In this document: one piece after another, positions 27,001 to 42,000 of the stretch
How positions within the stretch are numbered: position 1 is the stretch's first letter
Layout of the letters: every line of letters starts with the position of its first letter
From: an uncultured delta proteobacterium
Lineage (GTDB): Bacteria > Desulfobacterota > Syntrophorhabdia > Syntrophorhabdales > WCHB1-27
Length of the DNA stretch: 64,000 nt
Assembly: GCA_963810935.1 (NCBI GenBank)
Contig: CAWEPK010000009.1
Location: 128,001-192,000, forward strand
Direction of reading: 5' to 3'
Program-made: the position numbers

Positions 27001-30000
27001 GCTATGGCATAGCTGCGTTCAACCCCGGACTGCACTTCGGCAGGATCGAGGGCGGAAGGAACTACGATTTCTTTCAGGTCACCTACCTCGTGGAAAGGCC
27101 CTGCACCGACCACCTGCCGCTCGCGGTCTTTATCGAGCCCTTTGCCTCTTACGTGAACAGGCCGAACTCCGGTGTTGATTTCGGCTTTTTCACCGGACTG
27201 AAATATTGCCTTCAAGGGGCCGACAAGAAGGGGTTCTATTTTACGGGAGGGACCGGAATGGTTTACTCCACCATAGGCTTCAAGGAACAGGGCACCCATC
27301 TGGACTTCACGCTCGAAGCGGGGGTGGGCTACCGCTACGGGCGGTTCTTCATCGAAAACCGTCTGCGGCACTACTCGAACGGAGCATCGGCCACGCCAAA
27401 CAGGTCGGTCGACGCAAACGTCCTCAGCGTCGGCCTCTACTTCTGAAATACCGCACGGCTCCCTAAAAGCAGGCACGCGCCAAGGCCGCGAGCGGCCGGC
27501 TTAACTCTTCCGCCCGGTATCCGATAAATAGAATATATGGCTGCGGTCGGGCGGCGCCCTGGCCTGCAAGTGAGCGTCGTTTACGGGCCGAACCTCGCGC
27601 GGCATTTCGCGTCTTTTGAGGACGCCCGCGATACTCGAGGTTTCACCAGGGAGTAGGCATGATGACAGTCGAAGACGTCAGCAGTGAAAAAGATGAAGCT
27701 TCCTTCAACGATTTGAGCAAACCGGGCAAATCGTTCTTTTTCCCTGTCGGTCTCCCATTACAGATTGAGATCAGCGGGGTCTCACTCAGGATGAGCAGCG
27801 TTTCGGTCGGTTACCTGGCAGGCAACTGGTTGATAATAAAATATCCCTCCACCGGCACTTTCGGCTCTATCGCGAGCAAGCTGTTCAAAGGCAACAAGAT
27901 CACCGTGCGATACGTCAATGAAGGGGACGTTTTCGGTTTTCAATCCGAGCTGGTGGGCACGACGGTAGAACCTATGAGGCTCCTGTTCATCTCGTTTCCG
28001 ACAACGATTGCCCGCCGCAGCCTGCGGGCCAACAGAAGGATCGAGTGCTACCTTCCGGCCGAAATCCAGGGTGAGAAAATTAAAGAAGGCGAGACCGTCA
28101 AGGACGGCATTATTCTCGATATAAACAGTGCGGGCTGCCACTTTACGATGGTGCGCGGGGCGGCCGAGCAGGTATTGCCCGATGTGCGGATGAACGACCA
28201 GCTCTCGATCAGCGTGCAGCTCCCTGGGACGCAGGACAAGGTCACGCTTTCGGCCATCATCAAGAACATCCACCGGGACTCCCAGAAAATCGGCCTGGGC
28301 CTCCACTTCGACGACATAGACGAGGAAAAGAAGAACAGGCTTGTGGAGTTTGTATCGACCCTCGAAAAATTTAGCTGGGAGAAATAGAAAGGGCCCTAAA
28401 AAGGATAACCCAGCCCGGCAAAAATCGCGATCCCTTCCGAGCCCATGCCCATATCGACGCGCCCCACGATGTTCGGCCTTACGATCCCCCTGAAGCCTAT
28501 GCCCGGATTGAACTTGAAGTTCTTATGACGGATGTCCGTCAGGTTGGGCATTACCGTCCCCGCGTCGAAGAAAGGCGCAACCTCTATTTCGGCATCGACG
28601 TCAAAGAGATTCATGCGGGTAAGCCGGATACGCTCCTCAAGATTGCCCAGTATGTAGCTGTTGTCTATGAAACGGTTCCGGCCGTATCCGCGTAGTGTGT
28701 TCTCTCCACCGAGCATGGACTGCTCCAAAAACGGCACGTTGCTCCCCAGTGTCTGGCTGTAAGCGAAGCGGACAACGCTCACAATGTTCTTGTCGTAGGC
28801 CGGGAAATATCCCTTCATTTCCGCGTCGTAGTGCTGAAAACTGTCACTGGAGCCGAGAACTGCGGTGGACGCCTCGAATGTTGTCCTCCCGTACAGCCCC
28901 TTAGTGGGCGTGATGAGAGAATCCATGGTGTTGTAAATGAAGGAGACCCTCTGGGAATTGATCAGAAAGCCGTTAATGCCCGGGACCTGCTGCGGCGTAA
29001 ACACCTGGCCGATAAAGGGAAGTCCTTTCAGTGCGCCATGCTCGATATTAACGTTCCGGAACTTCTCGCCGACGGCTACCTGAAAGTTTTTAAAGATCTC
29101 GTAGCCGAGTGAGAAATTAAAACCTGTTTCCTGATCTGCATAATTTGACTGGTCCCGGCGGTGGCTTGTCGACTGAAAGCCGAAGAACCTGGCCGAGCCG
29201 TCGGTAAAATAGCCTGCGTAGCCGTTCGTCTCAAGCTTGGCGTCCATGAAAGTCTTGTCCCGGAACCTTACGTCGAAGTCCCGGTTTATGATGGTCGACT
29301 GCGAAAGGTTCACCTCGACCTGCTGGTTCAGCTTGGGGTAGTACGCCCCGTACAGCGTCATCGTAGACCCGAAGTTCTTATTGTAGTTGTATTGAGGCGC
29401 AAGGAGCGTCGAGACCTGATTCTCCTTGTTGTATTTCATAATGGCTGTCAAAAAGCCGTATGATGTGCCCTCATTAGGCGTTGTGGAGACAAAGGGCACG
29501 GGCACGTATGTGAACTCCTTATCGTGGGCCGGCGGTTTGTCCTTGGCCTGACTGCCGGGCTGTCCGGGGTCGGGCGCGTCAGGCTTCACCGTTCCGGCGG
29601 CGCCGGCGGCGTTTGGCGATTCATTCTTGAGCGATTCGACGGCTGGAATCGGAGGCGGCGTGCCCTCACCCGCAAACGCGAACGCAGCTATAAGTGGCAA
29701 TAGGAGAGCGAGCAAAAACCTGGTAGTAATCCGCATGGGGGTTGATTAGGATACCACGCAGAATGGCCCGACTGCAACGATACTCAACCGCCACCGTGCG
29801 TTTTGATCATTTTGCCCCCTTCGACAACCCGGTAGCGTATGCCCCTCCAACGGACTCTTGACCCCGCGAAGCTCCACAGCCATACAAAAAAACTGATGAC
29901 GTCCTTTACGGGCAGGAGAAACAGCCACCTGGCCCAGGCAGCATCGCGGATAACCTTCCTATGTATAAGACTCGCAATCGCGTACCGCAGAGCGAGCGCC

Positions 30001-39000: not shown

Positions 39001-42000
39001 AGAAGCGCCGGTAGAAAAGCTCGACTGTATCGAATATCTCTTCGCTCGAAAGCCAGGGGTACGACATGACGGAATTCTGGATCCCGTCCGTCACCAGCCC
39101 CGCGCCTTCTCCGGTAAGCCACCCTTCACTCCTCGCCTGGTCGTAAAGCACCGTTCCGGGATAGGGGGCGGCAAGCGAAACCTGTAAGCTGTAAGGGTCG
39201 ATCTCCCGCGCGAATTCCATTGTCTCCGCCATGGTCTCCCGCGTCTCGCCGGGGAGCCCCAGGATAAACGTGGCATGGATACGGACGCCCGCCTTTGCGG
39301 CCGCCTTTGCGAACTTGTGCGCGCCTTCAAGACTGATCCCCTTCCTGATGTTGTTCAATATCTTCTGGTTGCCCGATTCGAAGCCCACGGTCAGCAGGCG
39401 CAGCCCGTTCTCTTTCAGCACGTTAAGCGTCTTTTCCGACACGTTCGCCCTTGCGTTGCATGACCATGTGATGCCGAGCGTGCCTATCTTGCGGGCGAGA
39501 TATTCCAGACCGGGATGGTCGGTCAGCGTGTCGTCGTCGAAGAAGAATTCCTTCACCTGCGGGAAGAGGGCCTTGGCGAGGGACATCTCTTCGAAGATGT
39601 TGTCTACGCTCCGCACCCTGTAAACGCCTCCCCCTATCGTCTGCGGCCAGAGGCAGTACGTACAGCGGCCCCGGCAGCCGCGCCCCGCGTAGACCGAGAC
39701 GTAGGGATGCATGAGATACCCTATGAAGTAATTCTCTATCTTCAGGTCCCTGGCGTAAACCTGACTGACGAAAGGAAGGCGGTCGAGGTCCTCGATAAGC
39801 GGCCTGCGACCGGTGTTCTCGAAAGACCCGTTTGACCGGAAGACGATGCCCGCCACGTCGCGGAGCGGCTTCTCCTTCGCGATCTCTACGATTGCGTCGT
39901 CGAACTCCCCGACGGCCACGAAGTCTACCGCGGGCGCATTCTTCAGACTTTCTTCAGGGAAAACCGTTACGTGCGGCCCGACCATACCCACAGTGACGGC
40001 TGGGTATGATTCCTTGAACGTTCGGGCAAGCTCCGCGTCGTGCTCGAACGTAGCCGTGCCCGTATGTATGACGATTAGCTCGTAGCCTTGCGCGCTGCGG
40101 ACCGTCTCCTCGCGCGTCATGCCGTCGGCCGACGCGTCGAGCAGCCTTGATCCTTCTATCATTCCCGCAGGGTAGGCGAGCCAGGTGGGGTACCAGAACG
40201 AGCGGACTTCGCGGCATGCCTGATAGCGCGAGCCTGCACTACCGTCGAAGCCCTTGAAAGAGGGTGGGTTGAGTAAAAGGGTTCGCATTTTTATAAATAG
40301 ACTCTAAGCGTCTCCAGGTCACGCTGCTGCCCGGCCGGCTCACTCTCTTATTTTCATCATCTTGCAATATTTCGTCAACCAGTATAGCTAAAAACCGATG
40401 CGGGACAACGCATTTGGCCACCTCTTCTTCCCGATAGCACGGGGCACGGGACGAAGTATATCCGGATATTTTAGTCGAGTTTGTTAAGAGTGTCAACGAA
40501 AACCGGCAAAACGGGCCGTAAAAAGAGGGGTTTGCGGGATTGCGGCGGCATGATCTCGATCGGTCCGGGGCCTGTAATTATATTCACTCCATGCAACGGG
40601 AAAGCAGTTTTTAAATGCCGCTATCCATCACGTTGCCTCCTCTTGCGGCCCCGTTCCAAGGTCTCCGGAAGAAAACAGAGCACGACGACGCCCAACAGGT
40701 TGATAACGCACGTGACCGCAAGGCCGTGCGCAAGGCCGTGCGCCTTCCCTATATAGCCTATTGTATACGGCGCGACTACCGCGCCTATGCGCCCCGCGTT
40801 CCAGCAAAAGCCGCCCGCGTACGCGCGCAGGTGCTCGGGGAAAAGCTCTGCGTAGTAAGCGCCGGCGGCCGCCGCCACCCCGCTCACCCCTATGCCGACA
40901 ACCCCGCCCCACAAGAACAGGAAAACGGGGTTGCGGAAGACGATGTAGACAGCGACCGACCCGGAGACGAGCACGAATGCCGCCATCATCGCGGGCCTCC
41001 GCCCGACCTTGTCCGCCATCACCCCGAAAATCTGGAAGCCCGCGAACATACCCCCGTACATGAATAGCGAGAAATTGGCCATAGCGGAGAGCGAAAGCCC
41101 TCTCTCCATGACGAGGAACGTCGGCACCCAGTAGGCCACCCCCCAGTATCCGGCGAGGTTGAAGACGCTCACGAGGGTTGCGAGGATCGTGGTCTTGATC
41201 AATTTCCTCCCGAAGATCGCGCCTATGCCGACGCCTTTTTCCGCAGGCTTTTGCACGCTCGCGCGTGTCGCTTTGCCGGATGGGATGAGCCGGGCAACGA
41301 CCAGGGCAAGGGGTATCGAGCATGCGCCCGCGGCAAAAAGGAGGCGCCAGTTCATGCCGAGCACCAGCCTGCCCACGAGCGAGGCGACCACGGCGCCGAT
41401 TGCGAAGCTGCTGTAAACGAAGGACGCGGCCCTTGCGCGGAAAGCAGGCGCCCAGTGTTCCGCCACGAGTGCCGAGCAAGGCCCCCAGAGGCCGCCGATA
41501 GCGAGGCCGGTTAAGAACCTGAGGACCATCCACTGGCCCCAGCCGGACACAAAAGCGACGGCCCCCATGCCTGCGCCGAGCCAGACGAGCGACAGGATGA
41601 GGGCGAACCGACTGCTCCTGTTCTCCGCGAGCAGCCCGAAGACCACCGAGCCCGCGATTGCCCCGAGCATGGTGGCAGACCCCAGGAGCCCACCTTCCGG
41701 CAGTGAGATGGCGAGCACTTTGAGGAGCACGGGCATGGCGATGGCCAGGACTATGAGGTCGTAGCTATCAACCAGGTATGAAAAAAAGGCGGCCCATAGT
41801 ACGCACCACCGGTAACCGGTTCCCGGAAAGGCCGGCTGTCCGTCTTTCACTTCCATTTAGCTCCTTCCAATTTACGCGCGGCCTTTCAATGCAAAAAGCC
41901 GCCGGCTTACGTTAATACCGGCGGCTTTTATGGACTCATTCGTTTTGCTTCCCTGCGCCGGCATTATCCGACAGGTTCGAGGGGTCATCCCGCACATCGC

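What a model noticed while it worked through the whole genome (the two positions that open the first line are those of the whole stretch)
29784..40288. Complete hopanoid cluster without any squalene synthase; DUF116 membrane protein sits in its place
The genome has shc, hpnA, hpnG, hpnH, hpnI, hpnJ, hpnK and hpnN but no member of the squalene/phytoene synthase family (no Sqs, no HpnCD), like most shc-bearing Desulfobacterota sampled, so squalene must come from an unknown third route or from outside. The conserved cluster shc-hpnA-DUF116-hpnH-CruF-like names DUF116 (TM hairpin plus flavodoxin-like domain with invariant Cys) and the CruF-like protein as candidates.
Evidence so far: PF00494 in 0/41 order genomes; of 12 shc-bearing genomes in a 61-genome phylum sample 11 lack PF00494 and all 11 have DUF116, the one with PF00494 lacks it; DUF116 within 2 genes of shc in 1351 of 3032 genomes having both; cluster order kept in 15 of 19 family loci; model and fold search.
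(Added by a program. Inside this text positions count along the whole contig: contig position 128,001 is position 1 of the stretch shown here. "Call 12" and the like, gene names such as g00115 and contig names such as C1 are that model's own, and its searches are not shown. The text may have been shortened before it was handed on; [...] marks where a part breaks off. The agent that wrote the report below was given it as the finding of a first reader that could run no searches.)

Follow-up and report, generated by a model that had tools for sequence, protein, structure and literature searches.

The report
Candidate third route to squalene
This anaerobe has a full gene set for making hopanoid membrane lipids but no known enzyme for their precursor squalene, and an uncharacterised cysteine-bearing membrane protein (DUF116) turns up almost wherever those enzymes are missing and almost never where they are present, making it a directly testable candidate for the missing step.

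Summary
The cluster is real: hpnJ-hpnK-EamA-shc-hpnA-DUF116-hpnH-CruF-like, plus hpnG-like and hpnI. No PF00494 (Sqs/HpnC/HpnD) was found in this genome or in 81 order genomes. That gap is published (PMC7306690); I found no paper naming a candidate.

Across four genome samples, 59 of 60 shc-bearing, PF00494-less genomes carry DUF116; 0 of 45 shc-bearing genomes with PF00494 do. In one phylum, sister shc clusters carry either hpnCDE or DUF116 upstream of shc, and DUF116 was in 0 of 9 shc-less genomes. Elsewhere it is fused to a polyprenyl synthase just upstream of a true shc.

Against: DUF116 usually lies in an fmt-rsmB operon, is common without shc, tracks anaerobic lineages, and one myxobacterium has both it and HpnC. 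The CruF-like gene is not the replacement.

Best reading (0.5): DUF116 is a three-cysteine, probably Fe-S, enzyme or essential subunit that couples two farnesyl-PP to squalene. The chemistry is inferred, not shown. The scan earlier noted DUF116-polyprenyl synthase fusions beside 'SHC-like' cyclases on other DNA, read there as non-squalene pathways.

The parts
40468..40496 (-). sigma-70-like promoter upstream of hpnJ (11 of 12 consensus matches)
   Evidence: consensus match only
38873..40288 (-). hpnJ, B12-binding radical SAM enzyme (BHT cyclitol ether step)
   Evidence: TIGR03471 677 bits > 578
37940..38872 (-). hpnK-like YdjC deacetylase
   Evidence: PF04794 189 bits; TIGR03473 213.5 < 232.6
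37500..37943 (-). small EamA/DMT-family membrane protein
   Evidence: PF00892 40 bits; same position in L074, L076, L226
35476..37467 (-). shc, squalene-hopene cyclase with DxDD motif
   Evidence: TIGR01507 803 bits > 431; DVDD at residue 397
34463..35476 (-). hpnA, hopanoid-associated NAD-dependent SDR
   Evidence: TIGR03466 449 > 368
33654..34466 (-). DUF116 protein, short form: N-terminal RLGxxWxxW motif, two hydrophobic helices, amphipathic helices, flavodoxin-like domain with C168, C214, C243; candidate squalene-forming enzyme or subunit
   Evidence: PF01976 84 bits; conservation; model pLDDT 92.6; distribution
32613..33617 (-). hpnH, radical SAM adenosylhopane synthase
   Evidence: TIGR03470 366 > 225
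31762..32715 (-). CruF-like membrane protein (probable start ATG at 32613); probable hopanoid tailoring enzyme, not the squalene step
   Evidence: PF04240 88 bits; CruF equivalogs below cut-off; distribution
31001..31735 (+). hpnG-like nucleoside phosphorylase (ORF opens at 30917; probable start 31001)
   Evidence: PF01048 66 bits; TIGR03468 64 < 187; promoter-like site 30963-30992
29784..30950 (-). hpnI glycosyltransferase
   Evidence: TIGR03472 339.5 > 310

Best explanation
The window encodes an ordinary route from squalene to extended hopanoids (Shc, HpnH, HpnG, then HpnI/K/J). The squalene is made in the cell by a route that does not use the Sqs/HpnCD family, and the DUF116 protein is its catalyst or an essential subunit. 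Shown: gene content, the complementary distribution, positional exchange, fusion to polyprenyl synthase, three invariant cysteines at the C-terminal ends of strands in a flavodoxin-like domain. Inferred: C168, C214 and C243 bind an Fe-S cluster with one open site (E215 could be a fourth ligand or the acid); conserved N146, R167, R198, R216, N236 and R238 hold a diphosphate; low-potential electrons reductively cleave one farnesyl-PP to an allyl radical or anion that attacks C1 of a second, giving squalene in the membrane, probably in a dimer. The logic resembles IspH chemistry (recalled), with no homology shown. An oxygen-sensitive route would explain why aerobes use Sqs/HpnCDE instead.
For: (1) shc+ PF00494- genomes with DUF116: 21 of 21 in the own phylum, 15 of 15 in the phylum of a Nitrospirota-titled record, 19 of 19 in the own order, 5 of 6 in a probably Omnitrophota phylum. 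That is 59 of 60 distinct genomes, or 56 of 57 without the three centres picked for this arrangement. The one miss has its contig end 3.7 kb upstream of shc. (2) shc+ PF00494+ genomes with DUF116: 0 of 3, 0 of 32, 0 of 5, and 0 of 5 Bacilli tested: 0 of 45. (3) Nitrospirota sample: 45 have PF00494, 65 have DUF116, none both, 1 neither. (4) Sister clusters hpnC-hpnD-hpnE-PPS-dxs-shc-hpnH versus DUF116-shc-hpnH share downstream genes; DUF116 was in 0 of 9 shc-less genomes of that phylum (positive control). (5) Own order: 59 of 81 have neither shc nor DUF116; 17 of 19 have them adjacent. (6) A DUF116-polyprenyl synthase fusion lies upstream of a true shc-hpnH. (7) shc-adjacent DUF116 come from at least three branches of a quick tree plus the fusion. 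(8) The shc-linked copy is absent (G214) or frameshifted (G191) in two genomes with a second full-type copy elsewhere (fmt-linked in G214), and is the only copy in G000 and G233. (9) Archaea: 49 of 50 methanogens from Methanobacterium to Methanopyrus and T. barophilus carry it, 0 of 27 haloarchaea and 0 of 50 crenarchaea (PMC5898192 suppl. table 2); M. jannaschii has DUF116 and no PF00494 (controls) and is reported to make tail-to-tail C35 isoprenoids, as is T. barophilus.
Against: No activity, metal or lipid data. DUF116 follows fmt in 25 of 30 top own-phylum loci, an operon with no isoprenoid link. It occurs without shc in 35 of 91 (some are weak hits in ~530-aa proteins) and 50 of 51 PF00494-less genomes, so in Nitrospirota the pattern may be only the aerobe/anaerobe split. 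It is within 10 kb of shc in only 7 of 21 own-phylum genomes and near a cyclase in 9 of 80 best-matching loci (many loci are short), whose other neighbours are mixed and often redox or RNA genes. A myxobacterial genome has both DUF116 and an HpnC. G123 keeps both DUF116 forms intact. No DDxxD motif, no terpene-synthase fold; some members are 180 aa with no membrane hairpin. Genomes are related, so counts overstate independence. Anammox bacteria, the other published gap, could not be sampled.
Confidence: 0.5

Rival explanations
1. DUF116 is an accessory membrane redox or Fe-S protein of anaerobes, serving isoprenoid or radical SAM enzymes (IspG/IspH, HpnH, HpnJ). It is drawn into hpn clusters for that reason, and squalene is made by another, unidentified enzyme.
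For: Makarova et al. 2015 predicted electron transfer. Neighbours of short-form members include DsbD-like, DsbA, 4Fe-4S and ribonucleotide reductase genes, and MqnP in Tumebacillus. Anaerobe-biased range; very common without shc.
Against: HpnH and HpnJ work without DUF116 in all 45 PF00494+ genomes tested. In the Omnitrophota-like phylum it follows the loss of hpnCDE, not the phylum or the presence of hpnH. No other gene recurs in the PF00494-less shc clusters read besides hpnH, hpnA, dxs and CruF-like, all also found with PF00494.
Confidence: 0.22
2. A trans-polyprenyl synthase makes the first C-C bond (a presqualene-PP-like cyclopropane), and DUF116 only performs the reductive rearrangement, standing in for HpnC plus HpnE.
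For: DUF116-polyprenyl synthase fusions with both DDxxD motifs; a polyprenyl synthase between DUF116 and hpnJ in G024. IPPS-fold enzymes can evolve cyclopropanation (recalled).
Against: The window cluster has no polyprenyl synthase; the two in the genome lie elsewhere, one beside dxs. The DUF116-shc-hpnH clusters lack the PPS-dxs pair of their hpnCDE sisters. The fusion is equally explained as substrate supply.
Confidence: 0.13
3. Squalene is taken from the environment or from syntrophic partners; DUF116 is a passenger or helps uptake.
For: Offered as plausible by Santana-Molina et al. 2020. The host group is syntrophic (relatives named Syntrophorhabdales). Two HpnN-like transporters and an Omp85 gene are present.
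Against: dxs, ispH or polyprenyl synthase genes sit in PF00494-less shc clusters (PMC preprint J31 legend), pointing to de novo supply. Geobacter and Desulfovibrio make hopanoids in pure culture (recalled; Desulfovibrio also cited).
Confidence: 0.08
4. The CruF-like protein, or a squalene synthase too divergent or missing from the assembly, supplies squalene.
For: CruF-like is in 17 of 21 PF00494-less shc genomes. This assembly is 93.5% complete.
Against: CruF-like not found in 4 of 21 (94-100% complete) and present beside shc in a PF00494+ genome; absent from the DUF116-shc-hpnH clusters read. PF00494 in 0 of 81 order genomes, so a missing contig is not the explanation.
Confidence: 0.07

Closest known systems
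Hopanoid (hpn) clusters with HpnCDE or Sqs (Pan et al. 2015 as described in PMC7306690 and PMC13459092; passages read)
   Same: Shc, HpnA, HpnH, HpnG-like, HpnI, HpnK-like, HpnJ; expected products diploptene to BHT cyclitol ether
   Different: No HpnC, HpnD, HpnE or Sqs in the genome; DUF116 and a CruF-like gene inside the operon
The published squalene gap in anammox, Desulfobacterales and Desulfuromonadales (PMC7306690, sections 9 and 12 read, supplement searched)
   Same: Same observation: SHC without trans-IPPS head-to-head enzymes; same two explanations
   Different: No candidate gene named there; 'DUF116' and 'PF01976' have 0 hits in its supplement text (figures not visible). Extended here to Syntrophorhabdales, part of Nitrospirota and a probably Omnitrophota lineage
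DUF116 / COG1852 / arCOG02078 (PMC5898192, passages and supplementary table 2 read)
   Same: Two membrane helices plus flavodoxin-like domain with conserved Cys; fusion to polyprenyl synthetase noted
   Different: The window protein lacks the four-cysteine insert with CxxCxxC; the paper proposed electron transfer and made no link to squalene
'SHC-like' cyclase clusters with DUF116-polyprenyl synthase fusions (PMC7306690, PMC12414744 passages; earlier scan notes; L162 here)
   Same: DUF116 beside a class II cyclase with no squalene synthase
   Different: Here the cyclase is a true SHC above the equivalog cut-off with HpnH/I/J, so the substrate should be squalene; DUF116 is stand-alone
IspH (three-cysteine [4Fe-4S] reductive allylic cleavage; recalled)
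   Same: Proposed logic only: three Cys, open Fe site, prenyl diphosphate substrate
   Different: No homology detected (hhalign probability 0.9%); not among the top 50 fold matches

Membership tests
Hopanoid biosynthesis cluster | Squalene-hopene cyclase with DxDD motif | tested here: met
   TIGR01507 803 > 431; DVDD
Hopanoid biosynthesis cluster | C35 extension and tailoring genes hpnH, hpnG, hpnI, hpnJ, hpnK | tested here: met
   hpnH, hpnI, hpnJ above cut-off; hpnG and hpnK in the right Pfam families but below equivalog cut-off
Hopanoid biosynthesis cluster | Squalene supply by HpnCDE or Sqs | tested here: not met
Hopanoid biosynthesis cluster | Hopanoids actually produced | not testable with these tools
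   needs lipid analysis
Squalene/phytoene synthase family (PF00494), for the DUF116 protein | Sequence match and all-helical class I fold with DDxxD motifs | tested here: not met
   No PF00494 match at E<=0.01; hhalign 0.2% against one Sqs; model has an alpha/beta domain; no DDxxD
DUF116 (PF01976) | Pfam match above cut-off; PxC, ACERDL and GPC motifs | tested here: met
   84 > 25 bits
DUF116 (PF01976) | Six or more Cys including CxxCxxC (archaeal and fmt-linked forms) | tested here: not met
   Insert absent; 0 Cys between the PxC and ACE motifs versus 4-6 in long forms
Three-cysteine Fe-S enzymes (IspH, NadA type) | Fold or profile similarity | tested here: inconclusive
   Only generic flavodoxin-like matches, best Z 10.2 to a designed protein; hhalign against a single IspH 0.9%
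Three-cysteine Fe-S enzymes (IspH, NadA type) | Bound Fe-S cluster and reductive activity | not testable with these tools
   needs biochemistry
CruF carotenoid hydratase, for 31762-32715 | Equivalog score and carotenoid gene context | tested here: not met
   58 < 155, 55 < 400, 31 < 300 bits; no phytoene synthase in the genome; PF04240 itself is met

The most novel reading that the evidence does not exclude
DUF116 is a stand-alone, oxygen-sensitive Fe-S enzyme that joins two prenyl diphosphates tail-to-tail, unrelated to all known squalene and phytoene synthases. It would be the main source of squalene in anaerobic bacteria, supply the 'SHC-like' cyclases, and make the irregular isoprenoids of methanogens, ANME and Thermococcales (squalene, PMI, C35, lycopane series) used as geological biomarkers.
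Probability: 0.33. Interest if true: 0.95.

Novelty: new variant of a known kind. Interest (0 to 1): 0.8.

Why it matters
How anaerobic hopanoid makers get squalene is an open question stated in print (PMC7306690), and reviews read here still list only Sqs and HpnCDE (PMC13459092) or call the archaeal pathways unknown (PMC10821996). The distribution narrows the question to one 270-residue gene that can be tested in E. coli or by one deletion. [quoted passage not shown]

Tried and rejected
CruF-like as the squalene enzyme: rejected on distribution. Assembly gap as the cause: rejected by 0 of 81 order genomes. A short-form DUF116 subfamily specific to shc: rejected; short forms are widespread away from cyclases and long and fused forms also sit by shc. 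PDB sequence search: nothing under E 0.12. Foldseek: no match at E<=0.001; VIA-align: generic flavodoxin-like folds only, IspH and NadA not in the top 50. ESM Atlas: only DUF116 clusters. Search for longer fusions of the short form: none among 8000 candidates, weak evidence. Complex prediction of a dimer with 4Fe-4S was not available, so oligomer state and cluster site are untested. An attempt to sample Planctomycetota through a record titled Planctomycetia gave a phylum of small genomes, probably Omnitrophota, so anammox were not tested. The tree is the quick version only; the DUF116-PPS fusions and L129 dropped out of it. Literature: ten searches; 'DUF116' occurs in 2 papers, neither linking it to squalene synthesis. 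Subscription papers, figures and bioRxiv supplements were not visible; tables S2/S3 of PMC12324291 (domains near shc) were not among the 14,000 characters of supplement held and may list DUF116.
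Full report
OBSERVATION. The minus strand carries hpnJ (38873-40288), hpnK-like, an EamA protein, shc, hpnA, DUF116 (33654-34466), hpnH and a CruF-like gene, with gaps of -4 to 36 bases from hpnJ to hpnH. 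An hpnG-like gene lies on the plus strand and hpnI follows on the minus strand. Shc, HpnA, HpnH, HpnI and HpnJ pass their NCBIfam cut-offs; HpnK and HpnG do not but match the expected Pfam families. Two HpnN-like genes below cut-off lie on other contigs. Close relatives of the DUF116 protein are named Syntrophorhabdales. No PF00494 member was found by the Pfam model, by an HMM and tblastn from nine fetched members, or by HpnC, HpnD and Sqs queries. The genome is 93.5% complete, but 0 of 81 order genomes have PF00494. dxs, ispH and two polyprenyl synthases are present, so FPP can be made.

WHAT IS ALREADY KNOWN. Santana-Molina et al. 2020 (PMC7306690; sections 9 and 12 read, supplement searched) report SHC without these enzymes in anammox, Desulfobacterales and Desulfuromonadales and suggest a new pathway or uptake. 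They name no gene. Makarova et al. 2015 (PMC5898192; passages, supplementary table 2) describe DUF116 as two membrane helices plus a flavodoxin-like Cys-rich domain, guess electron transfer, and note a fusion to polyprenyl synthetase. A 2025 preprint (10.1101/2025.11.21.689855; passages) lists a cluster with DUF116, ispH, shc, hpnH and a polyprenyl synthase and no squalene synthase, without comment. These are the only two library papers containing 'DUF116'.

DISTRIBUTION. Own phylum, the same 121 genomes searched three times: shc 24, PF00494 9, DUF116 56, no genome with both PF00494 and DUF116. All 21 shc+ PF00494- genomes have DUF116, against 35 of 91 with neither shc nor PF00494; the 3 shc+ PF00494+ have none. 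Phylum of a Nitrospirota-titled record, 111 genomes: PF00494 45, DUF116 65, both 0, neither 1; shc+ PF00494- 15 of 15 with DUF116 (two of these shc matches are partial or split); shc+ PF00494+ 0 of 32. PF00494 also occurs without shc (13 of 45 there; 6 of 9 in the own phylum), so DUF116 without shc is not in itself a refutation. Own order, 81 genomes at least 80% complete: shc 19, all with DUF116, 17 adjacent and 2 on separate small contigs; 3 have DUF116 only; 59 have neither. Bacilli, 251 genomes: 15 score above 880 bits for SHC; of the 5 tested, all have two or three PF00494 genes, a pair of them beside shc, and none has DUF116.

THE CLEANEST CONTRAST. In the phylum of G121 (probably Omnitrophota: small genomes, a near-identical locus so titled), 11 of 201 genomes have shc. 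Five carry a PF00494 pair; in the two read in full the order is hpnC-hpnD-hpnE-polyprenyl synthase-dxs-shc-hpnH (families named in one). None of the five has DUF116. Five carry DUF116 directly upstream of shc-hpnH and no PF00494. Both types share downstream decarboxylase and aminotransferase genes. The eleventh has neither, but is of the dxs-shc type with its contig ending 3.7 kb upstream. DUF116 was in 0 of 9 shc-less genomes tested of 190. Here DUF116 follows the absence of hpnCDE, not the lineage. This may still be one evolutionary event.

RECRUITMENT AND REDUNDANCY. DUF116 next to a true shc comes in short form (this order, one other family, Nitrospirota, the Omnitrophota-like group), long form (G024, with a polyprenyl synthase and hpnJ between) and as a fusion to a polyprenyl synthase upstream of shc-hpnH-CruF (G041; two metagenome loci). 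A quick tree puts the unfused ones on at least three branches, with modest deep support. The window-type cluster lacks DUF116 in G214, which has an fmt-linked copy; has it frameshifted in G191, which has a full-type copy elsewhere (an assembly error is possible); and holds the only copy in G233 and G000. G123 keeps both. One myxobacterial locus has DUF116 before HMG-CoA synthase and thiolase, facing an oxidosqualene-cyclase-like gene; that genome also has a lone HpnC, the one exception to exclusion seen.

ARCHAEA. In the published table, arCOG02078 is in 49 of 50 methanogens from Methanobacterium to Methanopyrus, in T. barophilus and six other of 16 Thermococcales, and in 0 of 27 haloarchaea and 0 of 50 crenarchaea. 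Among the tool's 14 controls, DUF116 rings only in M. jannaschii and M. acetivorans, PF00494 in eight others including Haloferax and Sulfolobus. T. barophilus makes C30, C35 and C40 tail-to-tail isoprenoids (PMC4612709, passages); M. jannaschii C35 (PMC11884234, passage); M. vannielii C25 and C30 (PMC10821996, passage). I did not test T. barophilus for PF00494, and I recall that some methanogens have a phytoene synthase homologue, so this leg is suggestive only.

AGAINST. DUF116 follows fmt in 25 of the 30 best-scoring own-phylum loci, often before rsmB; the other 26 DUF116 genomes were not read this way. It is within 10 kb of shc in 7 of 21. Of 80 best-matching GTDB loci, 8 have shc and 1 an OSC-like gene in the flank; other neighbours are mixed. 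In Nitrospirota 50 of 51 genomes lacking both shc and PF00494 have it, as any anaerobe marker might. Genomes are kin, and three centres (G000, G121, G123) were picked for the arrangement.

CRUF-LIKE GENE. Found in 17 of 21 PF00494-less shc genomes, not in four that are 94-100% complete, and beside shc-hpnA in PF00494-bearing G032. It is more likely a tailoring enzyme, for example a hydratase acting on diploptene (inference from the family).

PROTEIN AND MECHANISM. The model (pLDDT 92.6, 126-row alignment) shows a hydrophobic hairpin, two further helices and a four-stranded alpha/beta domain. C168, C214 and C243 are conserved in short, long and fused forms; the four-cysteine insert is dispensable. 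Conserved Asn and Arg residues could bind diphosphate without Mg-binding DDxxD motifs. Fold searches gave only generic matches, and no homology to Sqs or IspH was detected. Squalene from two FPP is a two-electron reductive coupling, so a three-cysteine Fe-S site with an open iron is chemically apt. All of that chemistry is inference.

EARLIER SCAN NOTES. Several describe DUF116-polyprenyl synthase fusions beside 'SHC-like' cyclases and read them as non-squalene pathways; none matched this sequence. I saw one such cluster (L162) and the same kind of fusion beside a true SHC (L150), which suggests those clusters may also pass through a tail-to-tail product.

VERDICT. Real cluster, known gap, new and well-supported candidate, no biochemical proof. 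DUF116 as catalyst or essential subunit of direct coupling 0.5, as second enzyme after a prenyl synthase 0.13, accessory 0.22, uptake 0.08, other 0.07. Interest 0.8.

Noticed in passing
window 17183-17950 (-): A second PF04240 (CruF-like) gene, 30% identical over 140 residues to the cluster copy, downstream of a TRAP solute-binding gene, in a genome with no phytoene synthase.
   Followed up: partly
window 26919-29736: An Omp85-family gene directly after hpnI, then PilZ/YcgR-like and PagL-like genes on the other strand; the Omp85 protein could serve hopanoid or lipid delivery.
   Followed up: no
window 34516-34545 (-): A 10-of-12 sigma-70-like site inside hpnA just upstream of DUF116, possibly an internal promoter for DUF116-hpnH-CruF-like.
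   Followed up: no
L220:2774-5199 and L221:3310-6135: Probably Omnitrophota shc clusters include a split phosphonopyruvate/sulfopyruvate decarboxylase, an aminoethylphosphonate-type aminotransferase and a nucleotidyltransferase: possibly phosphonate- or sulfonate-bearing hopanoids.
   Followed up: partly
L115:7980-13844 and L268: Myxobacterial genome with DUF116-HMG-CoA synthase-thiolase facing an oxidosqualene-cyclase-like gene, and a lone HpnC among mevalonate genes with no HpnD or Sqs found.
   Followed up: partly
L119:7890-9744: Tumebacillus short-form DUF116 directly upstream of the menaquinone prenyltransferase MqnP; no PF00494 and no SHC at E<=1e-125 in that genome.
   Followed up: partly
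L054:2271-3461, L058:2145-3416: In one family the gene after fmt-DUF116 is a cyclopropane fatty acid synthase-like methyltransferase.
   Followed up: no
L265-L267: fmt-linked DUF116 of about 180 aa with no membrane hairpin in part of Nitrospirota.
   Followed up: partly
G722, G690, G703, G738, G724: Extra or orphan short-form DUF116 copies away from shc in the own order, in unrelated contexts; one single-contig genome has DUF116 without shc.
   Followed up: partly
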